NCBI GenBank assembly: GCA_038748025.1
Contig: JBCDJI010000002.1
Location: forward strand, 7,089 to 71,088
Direction: 5' to 3'
Length of the DNA stretch: 64,000 bases
Origin: Verrucomicrobiota bacterium
GTDB lineage: Bacteria > Verrucomicrobiota > Verrucomicrobiia > Methylacidiphilales > JBCBYL01
The translations under genes were made by a program, and so were the position numbers. Shown here piece by piece: positions 30,961 through 34,574 of this stretch (the stretch's first letter is position 1; each line of letters begins with the position of its first letter). The notes beneath the pieces were generated by a model. It saw only the letters and a list, made by a program, of their open reading frames with translations, ran no database searches and was not told where the DNA came from.

Positions 30961-31422
30961 ATGCAATATGCCATGGCAGACTGGTATTCCAGCATCCCCA
31001 TCTTTGCAGGTATTTCTGCAACCGCGCTGGAACAACTATCCACTTCCGCAGAAGTGCTGAAATTTCAAGCCGGACGGCTGCTTTTTTCTCAAGGAGAACC
31101 GGGTCATTCGTTTTATCTTATCGAATCCGGTGAGGTGGAAGTTTTTCAGGTGATGGATGGCGGACATGAGAAACAGATTGCCCTGCTGCCGCAGGGTGAT
31201 TTCTTCGGTGACATGGCTATCCTGGAGTGTGCTCCCCGTTCTGCCAGTGTGCGCACCACGCAAACCTCCCTGCTGCACGAAATCACTACTGCAGATCTGC
31301 ATCAGCTCTATAAAAGTATGCCAGATCAGTATTCGATACTGATCCTCAACATCGCCCGTGACCTGGCCCGGCGGCTGCATAAAATGGACAATCAGTTCAG
31401 CTACCGCAAGGCGGCAGATTGA
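30961..31422 (+). CDS. Single-domain cyclic nucleotide-binding protein
   Basis: LFSQGEPG, FYLIESGEVEV, GDFFGDMAIL, PRSASV; no HTH follows. Confidence 0.88.
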   Translation: MQYAMADWYSSIPIFAGISATALEQLSTSAEVLKFQAGRLLFSQGEPGHSFYLIESGEVEVFQVMDGGHEKQIALLPQGDFFGDMAILECAPRSASVRTTQTSLLHEITTADLHQLYKSMPDQYSILILNIARDLARRLHKMDNQFSYRKAAD

Positions 31423-31431
31423 AACTACGCT

Positions 31432-31460
31432 TTGCTAACTCAGCTGATTCGGAATATACT
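31432..31460 (+). promoter_or_regulatory. Sigma70-type promoter positioned for a leaderless transcript
   Basis: TTGCTA (31432-37), 17 nt, TATACT (31455-60), 7 nt, ATG 31468. Confidence 0.6.
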
Positions 31461-31467
31461 GTTCATT

Positions 31468-31812
31468 ATGAAGCAAGCTATTGCCCTCCTGCTCTCAGGC
31501 CTGCTGGTTTGCTCCGTCATCGGGGCGAGCCAGCAGTCGTCACATGTCTGGGTGCAGGTCGCCAAAGCGTCTCATACGTGCACCGATGGGAAATGTTGCT
31601 CGCAAAAGAAAGGATCCGAACCGGAACGCCAGACAAAATGCCCCTGCGGGCCGTGTGACATTGCTATCCCTCCGGCAACGGTTCCACTTTCGCTGCCGGA
31701 AGCCACCCGGTTTTTGGGAAAACCTTGTCTGCCATCTGAAGATCTACTGGCTCTGTCCATTCTTTTTTCGTCTCTGAACTGGTCTCCGCCGGTTCCTCCG
31801 CCACAGCATTAA
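31468..31812 (+). CDS. Putative metal-sensing leader/arrest peptide 1 (DUF2946/CutF-like architecture)
   Basis: Signal peptide, HTC...CC, CPCGPC, C-terminal SPPVPPPQH. Confidence 0.65.
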   Translation: MKQAIALLLSGLLVCSVIGASQQSSHVWVQVAKASHTCTDGKCCSQKKGSEPERQTKCPCGPCDIAIPPATVPLSLPEATRFLGKPCLPSEDLLALSILFSSLNWSPPVPPPQH

Positions 31813-31888
31813 GCGTTACCCGATTAAATTGTGCCCCGGATGCGGCACAAATGACCCGTTCCGTTGTATTCAAACGAAAGGAGCTTTA

Positions 31889-32035
31889 ATGAAGGCGCTA
31901 TTTATTATATTAGCAACATGCAGTGTGATCTTGCTTGCAACAGCTTCAGATCAGACAGCATGCCGGAAATGCTGTGGCGACAACTGTGCCGCCTGTTGTG
32001 GCGAAGGTGGCTGTGAAGCCTGCTGCGGCACATAA
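31889..32035 (+). CDS. 48-aa secreted Cys-rich metallothionein-like peptide
   Basis: SD AAAGGAG upstream of ATG 31889; signal peptide, then CRKCCG-CAACCG-CEACCG. Confidence 0.7.
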   Translation: MKALFIILATCSVILLATASDQTACRKCCGDNCAACCGEGGCEACCGT

Positions 32036-32049
32036 GCAGAATAGACCTG

Positions 32050-32103
32050 AATACCCCGGACAGACACGTCCGGGGTGTTTGGGGCGCTGCCCAAACACCC
32101 CGG
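32050..32103. terminator. Two overlapping, mutually exclusive hairpins (terminator or switch)
   Basis: Hairpin A 32050-61/32068-79; hairpin B is a perfect 14-bp stem CCGGGGTGTTTGGG/CCCAAACACCCCGG (32070-83/32090-103). Confidence 0.55.
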
Positions 32104-32104
32104 C

Positions 32105-32133
32105 TTGACGTAAACAGATCCCGAGACTATGTT
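32105..32133 (+). promoter_or_regulatory. Sigma70-type promoter positioned for a leaderless transcript
   Basis: TTGACG (32105-10), 17 nt, TATGTT (32128-33), 6 nt, GTG 32140. Confidence 0.55.
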
Positions 32134-32139
32134 TCCATC

Positions 32140-32472
32140 GTGAAAAAACTGCTGTCAGTATTACTGACGTGCCTAACCGTATATTTGCTGATCAGTTATG
32201 TGCTGGAACCCGGTTTCAGCAAAATCAGCAGTTCGCCGCCGGTTCATCACCACGATGGTGAACCTTGTGACTCCCAGGATGATACGCGATCTTCTCATCA
32301 TTGTTCCTGTGTTCCGTGCAAGGTTCCGCACGCACAACCGCTTTATGCTATTTCAGGCCCGTCCCTGCTGATCTACACCCCCATACCATTGCGGTGGTTT
32401 CAGCCTGATCATTTTCAGATGATTTCTCATCTGACCTCTCCAACCGTCCCGCCTCCACGCGACCTGGTTTAA
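32140..32472 (+). CDS. Putative metal-sensing leader/arrest peptide 2 (DUF2946/CutF-like architecture)
   Basis: Signal/anchor sequence, HHHDGEPC, HHCSCVPC, C-terminal SPTVPPPRDLV. Confidence 0.65.
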   Translation: MKKLLSVLLTCLTVYLLISYVLEPGFSKISSSPPVHHHDGEPCDSQDDTRSSHHCSCVPCKVPHAQPLYAISGPSLLIYTPIPLRWFQPDHFQMISHLTSPTVPPPRDLV

Positions 32473-32615
32473 TTCCTGATCCGCACGCGCGGATTATTAT
32501 TGCTCAGGTCCTTTGCGGGCAGAGGGCCATTTACCTTGGTATTGCAATGCCACCGGAGGCGCATGCGTTTTCAACGCAGGCCTCGCCATTAAATGAAAGT
32601 TAAGGATTTAAATCT

Positions 32616-33035
32616 GTGAACACACACATGAAATTATGGATCGCTATGCTGTTTGCGATCGGGCTGTTGATTCCAGCGGGGATCACAGCGGAAGAAAAAT
32701 CAGCGTCTCATAAATCACGTCATGCGGCGGTCTTGTCCGCCCTGCAGTCAGAACCCAACATCGCGTCCGTATATGCCCGGGGAGCCTGCTGCCCCTCGTG
32801 TGCCATCGGAATCCGCATTAAAATCAGTAAACTCGACTTCGTTGACCGCAAACGCTTCAGCAGAGGAGTCCGGCTTGATTCCAAACATGAGTTGGTTCAT
32901 GTCGCCATCCAGCCGGATCATTCGGCAGATGTGAGTCTTATTGGTCAAGCTATCGTCGATGCCGGTTACGATCCGGTGAGTGCCCATACACTCATAGAGG
33001 GCAAGCTAGTCACCACTTCACTTAAAAAACGATAG
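32616..33035 (+). CDS. Periplasmic heavy-metal-associated (HMA/MerP-like) protein
   Basis: Signal peptide, RGACCPSC (GxxCxxC), C-terminal AIVDAGY HMA signature; alternative start ATG 32628. Confidence 0.75.
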   Translation: MNTHMKLWIAMLFAIGLLIPAGITAEEKSASHKSRHAAVLSALQSEPNIASVYARGACCPSCAIGIRIKISKLDFVDRKRFSRGVRLDSKHELVHVAIQPDHSADVSLIGQAIVDAGYDPVSAHTLIEGKLVTTSLKKR

Positions 33036-33043
33036 CAGTTGCC

Positions 33044-33862
33044 ATGAAGTCACGAATATTGCAGTGGTTCATTCTGAGCCTACTAGTGCAATCCGGCGCC
33101 CTGGCAGCTCAGCCTGTCTTCAGTGAAATGCCCCGCTGGGACAATGGATGGGGTTTTCAGGTCGTTAACGAGTACCGCACAGAACGTGAATTACTTTCCG
33201 GGGAGGATACCATTGGTTCCGGGTTGTCTGAAGATGTGCACATCATGCATCTCGAAGGGGTTTATACCTGGGACCGGTCCATCCGCCTGACCATGAAACT
33301 GCCCTATGTGATTTCCGCTCGTCGGGAACTTCCCGGTCCGGGCGGTGGAAAAATGGTGCAACGTGATGAAGGGATTGGTGACATGACACTGGCACTGCCA
33401 CTTAAGAAATACTTCAATCTGGATGGTCGCAGTGGTTCCTGGACCTTAGCCCCTCAATTGAGAATACCCTTATCCGGCAGTGACGAGTATGAAATTTACG
33501 ACAACGTCTGGGGTCATGGTCTATCGCTCGGATATGAGACCGAAACGCACCGCTGGATCTTTGGTGCCGGTTCCACCGCCTGGATTTATCATAATGACGA
33601 ACCCATCGAAACGGAACTCGATCTGAAGCTGGGAATGAACTTCCAGGCCTTTCGAGGTTCCGGCAGCATTCAATGGAGGTCATCCTTTCACTACGAGGGA
33701 GATCACTCCATGACGTTCAGCACCGGACCAGTTCTCTACTGGCGTTTTACTGACACCATTCACACGCAATTCCAATGGAAACACGATTTCTATGATCGGC
33801 AGGGAACCATAGATCATGGACGGGGAGACGCCTTCAAATTTGGAGTTGGATTCGTATTTTAA
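33044..33862 (+). CDS. Putative outer-membrane beta-barrel/transporter
   Basis: Signal peptide, amphipathic aromatic-rich strands, GIGDMTL motif, C-terminal FGVGFVF BAM-type signal. Confidence 0.7.
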   Translation: MKSRILQWFILSLLVQSGALAAQPVFSEMPRWDNGWGFQVVNEYRTERELLSGEDTIGSGLSEDVHIMHLEGVYTWDRSIRLTMKLPYVISARRELPGPGGGKMVQRDEGIGDMTLALPLKKYFNLDGRSGSWTLAPQLRIPLSGSDEYEIYDNVWGHGLSLGYETETHRWIFGAGSTAWIYHNDEPIETELDLKLGMNFQAFRGSGSIQWRSSFHYEGDHSMTFSTGPVLYWRFTDTIHTQFQWKHDFYDRQGTIDHGRGDAFKFGVGFVF

Positions 33863-33872
33863 ATTCCCGCAA

Positions 33873-33902
33873 CATGCCCCGCCTGCCTCAGGGTGGGGCA
33901 TG
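33873..33902. terminator. Terminator-like hairpin between convergent genes
   Basis: CATGCCCCGCCT-N6-GGGTGGGGCATG. Confidence 0.55.
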
Positions 33903-33904
33903 CT

Positions 33905-34303
33905 TTAAACCTTCCGTACATTTAATCCCCGGATCATCCGGTAATCGGCAGAGTGATCCGTCAGCAGCATCAGGCTGTGCGCCAGACAGGTGGAAGCCAG
34001 CCAGCCTTCATGCAACCCCAGCGTCGCGGAGCGCCTGCCCAGCCCTTCGCGCAGTGCGGCATGCACCCGGGCAATCGATTCATCAATCGGGAAGATTTCA
34101 AACTTTTCAGCCAATCCCTCGATAAAGGCCATCCGACGGGCACGGTCAGCACCTGCCCTGGACAGGGAGACGCTGCGCAGCAGCTCATCCAAAGTAACCA
34201 CAGAAATCCCGCATACCCCGTCCGCCGGGTTGAGTCCCTGTACCCAGTCGGGCATTTCTCCCGCCAACCGGACCAGCACACCTGAATCGAGCAAGACATT
34301 CAT
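33905..34303 (-). CDS. PIN-domain (VapC-like) toxin
   Basis: VLLDSGVL, ISVVTLDELL, FPIDESIARVHA, WLASTCLAHSLMLLT. Confidence 0.8.
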   Translation of the reverse strand: MNVLLDSGVLVRLAGEMPDWVQGLNPADGVCGISVVTLDELLRSVSLSRAGADRARRMAFIEGLAEKFEIFPIDESIARVHAALREGLGRRSATLGLHEGWLASTCLAHSLMLLTDHSADYRMIRGLNVRKV

Positions 34304-34313
34304 ACCACCTACA

Positions 34314-34574
34314 CTACGAAGCCTGTGCTCTTCCCCGTAACTGTTTGAGATCCTCCAGCCAGCGCTCGCGCTCGCGCGGCTCCAGCGCTGGCAGATCCAT
34401 CAGCGCCTGCTGCAGATCCGAAATGGAAATCACAGCCTGAGCCGGTTTGAGTGACGCGACCCGCCGCTTACCGCGAATCAGAAAAAAACTCTCTCCACGA
34501 TAAGCCACCCGGTTCACGAAGTCTGAAAAATTACGCGCCGCTTCCGTAATGGATACATTCTGTCCCTTCATCAA
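34314..34574 (-). CDS. Phd/YefM-family antitoxin
   Basis: SITEAARNFSDFVNRVAYRGESFFLIRGKRRVASL; directly upstream of the PIN gene. Confidence 0.85.
   Translation of the reverse strand: MMKGQNVSITEAARNFSDFVNRVAYRGESFFLIRGKRRVASLKPAQAVISISDLQQALMDLPALEPRERERWLEDLKQLRGRAQAS

What the first reader, a model, noticed from the sequence alone, without database searches (positions are those of the whole stretch)
31432..33902. Tandem pair of putative metal-sensing ribosome-stalling leader units controlling a mini-metallothionein and an HMA/outer-membrane barrel module
Seen in sequence: two consecutive units share one design although their ORFs show no overall similarity. Each has a sigma70 promoter placing the TSS at the start codon, then a 110-114 aa ORF with an N-terminal signal sequence, a His/Cys patch, a CxCxPC motif (CPCGPC; CSCVPC) and a terminal SPxVPPP ending 49 and 46 residues later, then a structured spacer and metal-binding exported gene(s). 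Established: DUF2946-type leaders (CruR in Bordetella, CutF in Rhodobacter) combine a signal peptide, a Cys motif and a C-terminal Pro-rich arrest motif to couple periplasmic copper to translation of the downstream gene. Inference: this is an analogous system with a distinct CxCxPC/PxVPPP signature, used twice, with outputs other than a TonB receptor or multicopper oxidase. The 46-49 aa spacing fits the Cys motif reaching the periplasm while PPP sits at the peptidyl transferase centre.
Basis: partly seen in the sequence, partly recalled or inferred. Interest (0 to 1): 0.88.

Follow-up and report, generated by a model that had tools for sequence, protein, structure and literature searches.

The report
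Two metal-sensing stalling leader cassettes
Two small exported cysteine-motif proteins that end in a triple proline each sit ahead of exported metal-binding genes, and they most likely act like the known copper-sensing ribosome-stalling leaders CutF and CruR, in a bacterial phylum and with cargo genes not yet described for this mechanism.

Summary
The sequence features are real. Leader 1 (31468-31812, 114 aa) precedes a 48-aa exported peptide with 10 Cys. Leader 2 (32140-32472, 110 aa) precedes an exported HMA-fold protein and a PF13557 outer-membrane barrel.

The two units are independent cassettes: unit 1 alone occurs in two genomes of the same genus, and unit 2 alone occurs beside a tRNA gene in another family of the order.

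The best evidence for a CutF/CruR-like nascent-chain sensor is a "ruler". The distance from the last motif Cys to the last Pro is 49 in 4 of 4 leader-1 orthologs and 46 in 2 of 2 leader-2 orthologs. The leader-2 pair is only about 20% identical, while its cargo proteins are 45% and 73% identical. Five DUF2946-type ORFs from the same phylum (three over Pfam's cut-off) measure 47-49, and CruR's published spacing gives 49.

The leaders have no confident fold and a C>G bias in their 3' halves. In unit 2 an anti-Shine-Dalgarno stretch sits at the leader's stop codon.

They do not match the DUF2946 HMM, stalling is untested, and the RNA switch of unit 1 is unresolved. A third, phylum-wide family (PCxxC ... 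PPPR) lies upstream of TonB receptors and barrels.

Verdict: new variant of a known kind.

The parts
31432..31460 (+). Promoter-like site of unit 1 (TTGCTA, 17 nt, TATACT). The -10 hexamer ends 7 nt before the ATG, and no Shine-Dalgarno sequence is visible.
   Evidence: The same hexamers and distance occur in G028. The transcription start site was not measured.
31468..31812 (+). Leader 1, 114 aa. It has an N-terminal hydrophobic segment, a His/Cys patch, CPCGPC (31639-31656), and SPPVPPP (31783-31803) followed by QH and the stop.
   Evidence: Orthologs: P0002/G028 65%, P0003 59%, G029 50%. No Pfam or NCBIfam family. ESM Atlas model pLDDT 0.50.
31830..31849 (+). Position-conserved hairpin in the unit 1 spacer. 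It starts 17 nt after the stop codon and ends 39 nt before the next start codon.
   Evidence: dG is -8.2, -8.7 and -8.2 in 3 of 3 orthologs, with different stem sequences. Alignment.
31878..31883 (+). Shine-Dalgarno sequence (AAGGAG) of the Cys-rich peptide gene, inside the invariant AACGAAAGGA block.
   Evidence: Mean unpaired probability is 0.24 in the free fold, with a local partner at 31858-31866.
31889..32035 (+). Exported 48-aa Cys-rich peptide (10 Cys, with a repeated C-x2-CC pattern). Metallothionein-like by composition only.
   Evidence: It is conserved directly after leader 1 in G028 (55%) and G029 (43%). No family match.
32054..32080 (+). Terminator-like hairpin (CCCCGGAC / GTCCGGGG) followed by TGTTT. 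It ends unit 1, and the unit 2 insertion begins right after it.
   Evidence: Read. The same hairpin, followed by TGTTTTTG, follows the peptide gene in G028. The terminator scan did not list it.
32105..32133 (+). Promoter-like site of unit 2 (TTGACG, 17 nt, TATGTT). The -10 hexamer ends 6 nt before the GTG.
   Evidence: G031 has TTGACG at the same 29-nt distance from its ATG, but with a weak -10 hexamer.
32140..32472 (+). Leader 2, 110 aa. It has an N-terminal hydrophobic helix, HHH/C43, HHCSCVPC (Cys motif at 32302-32319), and SPTVPPP (32437-32457) followed by RDLV and the stop.
   Evidence: In the AF2 model only residues 2-21 are confident (pLDDT 57 overall). An ortholog sits in the G031 cassette.
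32466..32477 (+). Anti-Shine-Dalgarno arm (GGUUUAA-U-UCCU) that overlaps the leader 2 stop codon. It pairs with 32603-32614.
   Evidence: Minimum-free-energy folds. It is the best of 121 non-overlapping windows for pairing with the Shine-Dalgarno segment.
32477..32528 (+). Two terminator-like hairpins in the unit 2 spacer (32477-32496 and 32507-32528).
   Evidence: Not conserved in the AT-rich spacer of G031.
32603..32614 (+). Shine-Dalgarno region (AGGA-U-UUAAAUC) of the HMA gene, the partner of the anti-Shine-Dalgarno arm.
32616..33035 (+). Exported HMA-fold protein with a CCPSC metal site.
   Evidence: Pfam HMA scores only E 0.12. AF2 pLDDT 82, pTM 0.72. Foldseek top hits are CopZ, MerP and CopP. 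The G031 ortholog is 45% identical.
33044..33862 (+). Outer-membrane beta-barrel of the Phenol_MetA_deg family (PF13557), with a signal peptide and a C-terminal Phe.
   Evidence: E 2.5e-7, 31.4 bits against a 22-bit cut-off. The G031 ortholog is 73% identical.
33874..33901 (+). Terminator-like hairpin that ends unit 2. The right junction of the insertion follows it.
   Evidence: Read. Junction alignment.

Best explanation
Each leader is proposed to be a cis-acting, co-translationally exported nascent-chain metal sensor of the CutF/CruR kind.

Proposed sequence of events (inferred):
1. Transcription starts at or within a few bases of the start codon, giving a leaderless or near-leaderless message.
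2. The hydrophobic N-terminus takes the nascent chain to the Sec translocon.
3. When the ribosome reaches the terminal PPP, the C-x-x-C motif lies 46-49 residues back. It has then just left the ribosome tunnel and the translocon and is exposed to the periplasm.
4. [quoted passage not shown]
5. The length of the arrest sets expression of the cargo genes.

How the arrest reaches the cargo:
- In unit 2, a ribosome held at PPP or at the stop codon covers the anti-Shine-Dalgarno stretch at 32466-32477. [quoted passage not shown]
- In both units the C-rich, G-poor 3' half of the leader could also serve as a Rho loading site, as in CruR.

Shown: the anatomy, conservation, ruler, folds and contexts. 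Inferred: the stalling itself, action in cis, the identity of the metal and the direction of control.
For: 1. Ruler.
- The residues between the last motif Cys and PPP number 46 in 4 of 4 leader-1 orthologs and 43 in 2 of 2 leader-2 orthologs.
- The leader-2 pair is only about 20% identical.
- The only gap between the window and G029 leader 1 lies upstream of the motif.
- Last Cys to last Pro is therefore 49 and 46. Five DUF2946-type ORFs from this phylum give 47-49 in 5 of 5. Three of the five matched PF11162 over its cut-off and two fell just below it.
- The CruR paper states 45 intervening residues before RAPP, conserved to within 1-2 residues (passages read).

2. In the unit 2 cassette the leader has diverged to about 20% identity, while the HMA protein is 45% and the barrel 73% identical. 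Across all 6 leaders the invariant columns are H, three Cys, two Ser, L, P and the terminal PPP, 11 in all.

3. No confident fold.
- AF2 gives leader 2 pLDDT 57 and pTM 0.24, with only the N-terminal helix confident.
- The ESM Atlas model of leader 1 has pLDDT 0.50 and pTM 0.13.
- CruR is likewise described as poorly structured.

4. Fixed partnership.
- Leader 1 plus the Cys-rich peptide occur together in 3 of 3 genomes of the genus, with different neighbours.
- Leader 2 plus HMA plus barrel occur together in 2 of 2 genomes that hold the barrel, out of 104 searched.

5. Unit 2 RNA.
- The anti-Shine-Dalgarno arm at the leader's stop codon pairs with the HMA Shine-Dalgarno region in the minimum-free-energy fold. 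It ranks 0 of 121.
- In G031, AAUCCUU at the stop codon pairs with AAGGAUU at probability 0.6-0.84.

6. C exceeds G in the second half of 5 of 5 leaders (29-41% C against 16-23% G).

7. EF-P is encoded in the genome.

8. A third family with a terminal PPP lies directly upstream of a PF13557-type barrel (4 loci; the Pfam match is on the L024 ortholog, the own-genome copy has none), TonB-dependent receptors (7 loci; Plug domain confirmed for 2 representatives) and other exported proteins among 30 loci. This mirrors the neighbours of CruR and CutF-like proteins.
Against: - Neither leader matches DUF2946 (PF11162) at E up to 1, and no copy is found over the cut-off in this genome.
- hhalign against 5 DUF2946-type ORFs aligns only 29 columns around the Cys motif (E 7.7e-4, probability 25%).
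- Within the genus, leader 1 is as conserved (65% and 50%) as its cargo peptide (55% and 43%). Whole-length constraint, as expected for a working protein, is therefore not excluded.
- Forcing a ribosome footprint at PPP or at the stop codon barely changes the computed Shine-Dalgarno accessibility: unit 1 moves from 0.24 to 0.22-0.25, and G031 from 0.30 to 0.33-0.36. For the window's unit 2 the measured window was set for ATG 32628, not the Shine-Dalgarno sequence before GTG 32616, so its 0.52 to 0.53-0.56 is not a test.
- The partner of the Shine-Dalgarno sequence differs in each unit 1 ortholog.
- Across 26 loci, complementarity between the stop region and the Shine-Dalgarno segment is not enriched. 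The mean rank fraction is 0.39, only 2 of 26 rank first, and G031 ranks 35 of 113.
- The hydrophobic N-termini lack a canonical cleavage site, unlike CutF.
- Two of the five leader genes start with GTG, which is a poor start for a leaderless message in E. coli (my recollection).
- There are no expression data.
Confidence: 0.55

Rival explanations
1. The "leaders" are ordinary stable envelope proteins. They would be N-terminally anchored or periplasmic metal-binding proteins (chaperones, or CzcI-like regulators acting in trans) that work together with the cargo proteins. The proline tail would be a structural or interaction motif, not an arrest signal.
For: - Leader 1 orthologs are 50-65% identical over their whole length, no less than the cargo peptide.
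- The N-terminal segments lack an obvious cleavage site and could be membrane anchors.
- The third family has a strongly conserved polar pattern in its transmembrane segment, GGxW..LQ..AW..M.
- The CutF paper itself notes that CutF-like proteins such as CzcI may not all work alike.
Against: - No confident fold beyond the N-terminal helix.
- The leader 2 pair keeps only its motifs and an exact 43-residue spacing at about 20% identity, while its cargo proteins stay 45-73% identical.
- PPP always lies 2-4 residues from the stop codon in 6 of 6 leaders.
- The spacing equals that of 5 DUF2946-type ORFs from this phylum (47-49).
Confidence: 0.25
2. The leaders are true but highly diverged members of DUF2946 rather than an independent or convergent family. 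The mechanism is as in the best explanation, and only the classification differs.
For: - The order of features is the same: an upstream Cys, then an acidic/His-rich stretch, then C-x-x-C, then 43-46 residues, then the Pro arrest motif, then 2-4 residues.
- hhalign aligns the Cys region of DUF2946 with that of the leaders (29 columns, E 7.7e-4).
- The spacing is identical.
Against: - hhalign probability is only 25%.
- The Pfam HMM gives nothing at E up to 1.
- The arrest motif is VPPP/IPPP, not RAPP/RGPP.
- A profile search of 1.84 billion representative proteins found only P0002.
Confidence: 0.3
3. Leader 1 and the Cys-rich peptide form a peptide natural-product or bacteriocin-like pair unrelated to metal sensing, for example a precursor together with an immunity or export helper.
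For: The cargo is a short exported peptide with a regular C-x2-CC repeat and no family assignment.
Against: - No modification, transport or immunity genes are conserved around the pair. Its neighbours differ in 3 of 3 genomes.
- The paralogous leader 2 heads an HMA-fold metallochaperone-like gene.
Confidence: 0.05

Closest known systems
CutF of Rhodobacter capsulatus (cutFOG operon; PMC9973294 and bioRxiv 10.1101/2025.02.05.636593; passages, two sections of each paper, and the preprint's outline with abstract read)
   Same: - A small exported protein with a Cys motif plus upstream Cys residues.
- A C-terminal PPP a few residues from the stop codon.
- An exported metal-handling gene downstream on the same strand.
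- In unit 2, the downstream Shine-Dalgarno sequence is paired with sequence next to the leader's stop codon.
- The G031 leader even has C-x-x-x-C.
   Different: - No detectable sequence homology.
- No canonical signal-peptide cleavage site.
- Spacers of 76-155 nt.
- The cargo is a Cys-rich mini-peptide, or an HMA protein plus a PF13557 barrel, not a multicopper oxidase.
- Phylum Verrucomicrobiota.
- Promoter-like sites suggest a leaderless message.
CruR (Bp2923) of Bordetella pertussis, the DUF2946 prototype (PMC9426467; passages read)
   Same: - C-x-x-C in leader 1 (CGPC) and in the window's leader 2 (CVPC).
- 45 intervening residues before the four-residue arrest motif in leader 1, and 42 in leader 2.
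- Predicted to be poorly structured.
- A C>G bias in the 3' half.
- A long spacer in unit 2 (143 nt to GTG 32616, against 162 nt in CruR).
   Different: - The arrest motif is V/I-PPP, not RAPP.
- The Pfam model does not match.
- The cargo is not a TonB-dependent transporter, although the third family found here often precedes one.
- Rho dependence is untested.
Rule-based "CutF-like proteins" (list D, 29 sequence-similarity clusters, PMC9973294)
   Same: The published filters are met: under 150 aa, PP within the last 15 residues, a hydrophobic N-terminal segment taken as the export signal (no predictor run), and a downstream same-strand gene within 1000 nt.
   Different: - That list was gathered by jackhmmer from CutF relatives.
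- Most of its members are Pseudomonadota and Bacteroidota.
- Verrucomicrobiota, HMA, metallothionein and PF13557 do not occur in the main text.
- The supplementary lists could not be opened, so prior inclusion cannot be excluded.
MerP / CopZ-type HMA metallochaperones and COG4313 (PF13557) outer-membrane channels, as relatives of the cargo
   Same: - The HMA fold with the Cys site in the loop before helix 1.
- The barrel matches PF13557 over the cut-off.
   Different: - The metal site is CCPSC.
- The protein carries an extra N-terminal helix (residues 21-45).
- I know of no described pairing of an HMA protein with a PF13557 barrel (my recollection; not searched for specifically).

Membership tests
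DUF2946 (PF11162; CruR/CutF family) | Match to the Pfam profile over the gathering score | tested here: not met
   No match for leader 1 or leader 2 at E up to 1. The best match in the whole genome lies elsewhere, scores 15.1 bits against a 23.7-bit cut-off, and contains stop codons.
DUF2946 (PF11162; CruR/CutF family) | Profile-profile similarity to family members | tested here: inconclusive
   hhalign of 5 DUF2946-type ORFs from this phylum against the 6 leaders gives 29 columns over the Cys region, E 7.7e-4, probability 25%.
DUF2946 (PF11162; CruR/CutF family) | Conserved C-x-x-C (CruR) or C-x-x-x-C (CutF) motif in the exported part | tested here: met
   CGPC is present in 4 of 4 leader-1 orthologs. 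The window's leader 2 has CVPC and the G031 leader 2 has CGVNC.
DUF2946 (PF11162; CruR/CutF family) | C-terminal RAPP motif (CruR logo) | tested here: not met
   The tails are VPPPQH, VPPPRLG, VPPPKH, VPPPRDLV and IPPPQV. A PPP repeat, as in CutF, is present in 6 of 6.
DUF2946 (PF11162; CruR/CutF family) | About 45 residues between the Cys motif and the arrest motif, conserved to within 1-2 | tested here: met
   Last Cys to last Pro is 49 (leader 1, 4 of 4) and 46 (leader 2, 2 of 2). DUF2946-type ORFs in this phylum give 47-49 (5 of 5). The published figure is 45 intervening residues.
DUF2946 (PF11162; CruR/CutF family) | Translation arrest at the C-terminal motif that controls the downstream gene in cis in response to metal | not testable with these tools
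   No RNA run was listed for this stretch. This needs toeprinting, ribosome profiling or reporter assays.
Rule-based CutF-like proteins (PMC9973294) | Under 150 aa, PP within the last 15 residues, an N-terminal signal, and a same-strand downstream gene within 1000 nt | tested here: met
   The leaders are 114 and 110 aa. PPP ends 2 and 4 residues from the stop codon. The N-terminal hydrophobic helix is confident in AF2, although no signal-peptide predictor was run. The spacers are 76 and 143 nt.
HMA domain (PF00403), for the protein encoded at 32616-33035 | Beta-alpha-beta-beta-alpha-beta fold with a Cys pair in the first loop | tested here: met
   The Pfam score is below the cut-off (13.2 against 24.8 bits). 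The AF2 model (pLDDT 82) matches CopZ 2qif/6ff2, MerP 1osd and CopP 1yg0 with target TM-scores of 0.74-0.85.
Phenol_MetA_deg outer-membrane barrel (PF13557), for the protein encoded at 33044-33862 | Match to the Pfam profile over the gathering score | tested here: met
   31.4 bits against a 22-bit cut-off, E 2.5e-7.
Metallothionein, for the peptide encoded at 31889-32035 | Membership in a known metallothionein family, or shown metal binding | tested here: not met
   No Pfam, NCBIfam or Atlas relative. Only the composition is metallothionein-like (about 9 Cys in roughly 28 mature residues; the cleavage site was judged by eye). Metal binding cannot be tested here.

The most novel reading that the evidence does not exclude
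Verrucomicrobiota would carry their own set of exported nascent-chain metal sensors, unrecognised by Pfam, that work by PPP arrest.

- A genus-restricted pair of paralogs (leaders 1 and 2) reproduces the 46-49-residue "transmembrane ruler" of DUF2946 without detectable homology, pointing to convergence on a physical constraint of the ribosome tunnel plus the Sec channel.
- A phylum-wide family (transmembrane segment, then PCxxC, then 58-63 residues, then PPPR) heads TonB-dependent receptors and PF13557 barrels.
- The cassettes would be small, self-contained, horizontally moving sensor-plus-cargo modules on leaderless transcripts.
- One of them would control the first exported bacterial mini-metallothionein.
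Probability: 0.35. Interest if true: 0.75.

Novelty: new variant of a known kind. Interest (0 to 1): 0.6.

Why it matters
Control of gene expression by arrest of a nascent exported chain that senses periplasmic copper was described only in 2022-2025, for CruR and CutF. Its generality and its physical rules are still open.

- **A test of the ruler idea.** Here the Cys-to-Pro distance of 46-49 residues is reproduced in proteins that no profile links to DUF2946. It is also held exactly across orthologs of about 20% identity. Such sequences are natural test material for the idea that the distance measures the ribosome tunnel plus the translocon.
- **Compact test objects.** The cassettes are very small: a promoter, a leader, a spacer and one to two cargo genes in 0.6-1.8 kb. 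That makes them convenient for reporter work.
- **New cargo classes.** The cargo adds an exported Cys-rich mini-peptide and an HMA protein paired with a PF13557 barrel. Both hint at unexplored metal handling in the envelope.
- **A candidate regulator across a phylum.** The third family, found in 73 of 104 genomes of the order and 70 of 301 sampled genomes of the phylum, offers a candidate regulator for TonB-dependent receptors in Verrucomicrobiota.

Tried and rejected
1. Sequence homologs.
- A word-based search for leader 2 found nothing. For leader 1 it found only P0002 and P0003.
- A profile of both leaders against 1.84 billion representative proteins found only P0002.
- A phylum sample gave 2 of 401 genomes: the window's own genome and a partial match inside a 557-aa frame that I regard as spurious.
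- The order search with leader 2 listed 11 of 104 genomes at E up to 0.01. Only the window's own genome and G029 were full-length. I dropped the other 9 because they were partial, held stop codons or lay in long frames.
- With the profile, 5 of 104 genomes matched, and I dropped two (G031 C133 and G044) for the same reasons.

2. hhalign of the third family against the leaders aligned only the C-terminal 26 columns (E 0.0013, probability 18%). Against DUF2946 it aligned only 8 columns. Homology between these families is not shown.

3. A general anti-Shine-Dalgarno test over 26 loci was negative. Many downstream start codons in that set were machine-picked and may be wrong, so the test is noisy.

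4. The ribosome-footprint constraint folds gave almost no change in Shine-Dalgarno accessibility. In that run the window's unit 2 was given ATG 32628 as its start, so its Shine-Dalgarno window was misplaced. One search used GTG 32616.

5. RNAalifold on 3 unit-1 spacers suggested that the PPP and stop codons pair with the 3' arm of the hairpin. It showed only 2 covarying pairs and a positive covariation term, so I did not rely on it.

6. PDB sequence searches for the HMA-like protein and the barrel gave nothing useful.

7. The ESM Atlas lookup for the Cys-rich peptide gave no usable hit. For leader 1, the nearest clusters were unnamed Bacteroidota proteins of about 111 aa, plus DUF6769 and DUF6660. 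Pfam did not confirm either family at E up to 1.

8. RNA evidence: no RNA holder was listed.

10. Literature.
- A search for Verrucomicrobia with arrest peptide, DUF2946, copper or uORF returned no paper combining them.
- A search for periplasmic, secreted, extracytoplasmic or exported metallothionein returned one unrelated fungal paper.
They could list Verrucomicrobial members.

Full report
**What is there.**

On the + strand the region holds the following:
- a stand-alone cNMP-binding protein (30961-31422);
- leader 1 (31468-31812, 114 aa);
- a 76-nt spacer;
- a 48-aa exported peptide with 10 Cys (31889-32035);
- a terminator-like hairpin followed by TGTTT (32054-32080);
- leader 2 (32140-32472, 110 aa);
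- a spacer of 143 nt to GTG 32616 (155 nt to ATG 32628);
- an exported HMA-like protein (32616-33035);
- an outer-membrane barrel (33044-33862);
- a second terminator-like hairpin (33874-33901);
- a convergent vapBC-like pair.

The last motif Cys lies 49 and 46 residues before the last Pro.

Two of the three promoter-like sites in 3.6 kb end 7 and 6 nt before the two start codons. Neither start codon has a Shine-Dalgarno sequence, whereas both cargo genes have AAGGA(G).

**The cargo.**
- Pfam supports the barrel: PF13557, 31.4 bits against a 22-bit cut-off.
- Pfam does not support the HMA protein (E 0.12). An AF2 model (pLDDT 82, pTM 0.72) has the beta-alpha-beta-beta-alpha-beta fold. Its best Foldseek matches are CopZ, MerP and CopP, with target TM-scores of 0.74-0.85.
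- The Cys-rich peptide has no relatives in Pfam, NCBIfam or the Atlas. "Metallothionein" therefore describes its composition only.

**The leaders are related, and the units are separate cassettes.**
- BLASTP of leader 1 against leader 2 is weak (E 0.002).
- Leader 2 nevertheless finds the leader-1 ortholog of a genome of the same genus (G029) over residues 1-107 at E 2.1e-5.
- An alignment of six leaders has 11 invariant columns: H36, C43, S45, C55, C60, L68, S96, P101 and P104-106. They are remote paralogs.
- In G028 (same genus), leader 1 and the Cys-rich peptide sit between the same membrane-protein gene and the same vapBC-like pair. The cNMP gene and all of unit 2 are missing there.
- The junction alignment places the insertion directly after the terminator of unit 1.
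- In G029 the same two-gene pair has quite different neighbours.
- Unit 2 recurs as a three-gene cassette in G031, a different family of the order, next to a tRNA-Tyr gene.
- "Tandem" is therefore an accident of insertion. Each cassette carries its own promoter-like site and terminator-like hairpin.

**How narrow the family is.**
- A word search found only two relatives of leader 1 and none of leader 2.
- A profile of both leaders against 1.84 billion representative proteins found only P0002.
- Among 104 genomes of the order, only the three genomes of the genus hold a full-length match. The G031 leader is too diverged for the profile and was found through its cargo.
- Among 401 sampled genomes of the phylum, no genome other than the window's own holds a credible match.

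**Evidence bearing on mechanism.**

From the literature (passages and named sections read):
- CutF has a Sec signal, C-x-x-x-C plus two upstream Cys, and a C-terminal PPP. [quoted passage not shown]
- CruR has C-x-x-C and RAPP separated by 45 residues, a distance conserved to within 1-2 residues in DUF2946. It is poorly structured, has a C>G region, and acts through Rho.

Measurements made here:
- The residues between the last motif Cys and PPP number 46 in 4 of 4 leader-1 orthologs and 43 in 2 of 2 leader-2 orthologs.
- The leader-2 pair is about 20% identical and cannot be aligned in that segment, while its HMA and barrel proteins are 45% and 73% identical.
- The one gap between the window and G029 leader 1 lies upstream of the motif.
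- Five DUF2946-type ORFs taken from this phylum give 47-49 residues from the last Cys to the last Pro. Three of them matched PF11162 over its cut-off and two fell just below it. In all, 4 of 201 sampled genomes had a match over the cut-off. The leaders give 49 and 46.
- AF2 gives leader 2 no confident structure beyond the N-terminal helix (pLDDT 57). The Atlas model of leader 1 has pLDDT 0.50.
- C exceeds G in the second half of 5 of 5 leaders.
- EF-P is present in the genome.

**RNA level.**

Unit 2:
- The last codon, the stop codon and the next bases (32466-32477) pair with the Shine-Dalgarno region of the HMA gene (32603-32614) in the minimum-free-energy fold.
- This is the best of 121 non-overlapping windows.
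- In G031, whose spacer is otherwise unrelated and AT-rich, AAUCCUU at the stop codon pairs with AAGGAUU at probability 0.6-0.84. By the duplex rank test, however, it is unremarkable (35 of 113).
- A ribosome held at the third Pro would reach roughly to the stop codon, so the geometry is plausible.

Unit 1:
- A hairpin of -8.2 to -8.7 kcal/mol lies 15-19 nt after the stop codon in 3 of 3 orthologs, with different stem sequences.
- The AACGAAAGGA Shine-Dalgarno block is invariant.
- The Shine-Dalgarno sequence pairs with a different partner in each ortholog.
- Footprint constraints do not free it.

Overall:
- The family-wide test is negative.
- The output step is therefore reasonably supported in unit 2 and open in unit 1.
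- The sign of regulation and the metal cannot be read from sequence.

**A third, much larger family.**
- Scanning the genome for small ORFs with a hydrophobic N-terminus and PPP in the last 12 residues gave 18 candidates. Only leaders 1 and 2 and one more looked like real genes.
- The third is a 134-aa protein on contig 8 with a PCSLCE motif that ends in ETPPPRLV. A 407-aa outer-membrane protein follows 63 nt later. The window's own copy of that protein has no Pfam match, but its L024 ortholog matches PF13557 at 24.1 bits against a 22-bit cut-off.
- This family occurs in 73 of 104 genomes of the order and in 70 of 301 sampled genomes of the phylum.
- It has no Pfam or NCBIfam model: 0 consistent hits among 28 members.
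- It ends in PPP within the last 12 residues in 21 of 30 loci, and most of the others end in PxP variants.
- It keeps 58-63 residues between PCxxC and PPP.
- Downstream of the 30 loci lie:
  - 4 copies of that outer-membrane protein (PF13557 by the L024 match);
  - 7 TonB-dependent receptors, with the Plug domain confirmed in the 2 representatives that I scanned;
  - 4 prepilin-type proteins;
  - 4 unassigned proteins of 307-338 aa;
  - 2 PEP-CTERM proteins;
  - 9 short or doubtful ORFs.
- hhalign links it to the leaders only through the C-terminal 26 columns (probability 18%).
- It shows that small exported proteins with a Cys motif and a terminal PPP ahead of outer-membrane transport genes are a recurring theme in this phylum, as DUF2946 is in Proteobacteria.

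**Comparison and verdict.**
- The leaders work, most likely, like CutF and CruR. They meet the rule-based "CutF-like" filters and the DUF2946 ruler.
- They fail the DUF2946 profile and lack RAPP. I therefore do not file them as DUF2946 members. Remote homology (hhalign probability 25%) and convergence both remain open.
- The main rival is a stable metal-binding envelope protein. Three observations keep it alive: the whole-length conservation of leader 1 within the genus (65% and 50%, against 55% and 43% for the cargo), the absence of a cleavage site, and the lack of any expression or stalling data.

I rate the stalling-sensor reading at 0.55, the finding as a new variant of a known kind, and its interest at 0.6.

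Noticed in passing
G000 contig 8, 25646-26047 (locus L020 3647-4051), with the downstream gene at L020 4115-5338: A third small protein (134 aa) with a conserved transmembrane segment, a PCSLCE motif and a C-terminal ETPPPRLV. It sits 63 nt upstream of a 407-aa outer-membrane protein whose L024 ortholog matches PF13557. Its family is present in 73 of 104 genomes of the order and 70 of 301 sampled genomes of the phylum. It has no Pfam or NCBIfam model and often precedes TonB-dependent receptors.
   Followed up: partly
window 32076-33905, compared with L016 2067-2127: Unit 2 (leader 2, HMA protein and barrel) is an insertion relative to the G028 genome of the same genus. It lies between the terminator of the Cys-rich peptide gene and the vapC-like gene. 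No integrase or repeat was looked for.
   Followed up: partly
L052 428-510: In G031 the unit 2 cassette lies about 100 nt downstream of a tRNA-Tyr gene. The barrel is 73% identical between two different families of the order, which suggests horizontal movement of the cassette.
   Followed up: no
window 33905-34574 (- strand): A vapBC-like toxin-antitoxin pair (132-aa and 86-aa ORFs), conserved in position in G028. The name is my judgement from reading the ORFs. It was not run against any family library.
   Followed up: no
window 30961-31422: A stand-alone cNMP-binding domain protein (153 aa, PF00027, E 1.8e-21) with no DNA-binding domain, ending just before the unit 1 promoter-like site. It is absent at this place in G028.
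   Followed up: no
L004 587-1324 (- strand): In G029 a 245-aa protein is divergently placed upstream of the leader 1 cassette. By eye it looks like a glutaredoxin-like N-terminus fused to a multi-pass membrane domain. It was not run against Pfam.
   Followed up: no
L053, L054, L056, L058, L059: DUF2946-type proteins (CPLC, CGLC or CQSC motifs, then RAPP or RGPP) are rare in this phylum. Four of 201 sampled genomes have a match over the cut-off, and none of these is in the window's class. They occur in other lineages than the PCxxC...PPPR family.
   Followed up: partly
L045, L047, L049, L050 (downstream ORFs of 307-338 aa): A group of exported proteins that begin AHG(L/F)EGDRFFP. They follow members of the third family and have no Pfam match (2 of the 4 were scanned).
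   Followed up: no
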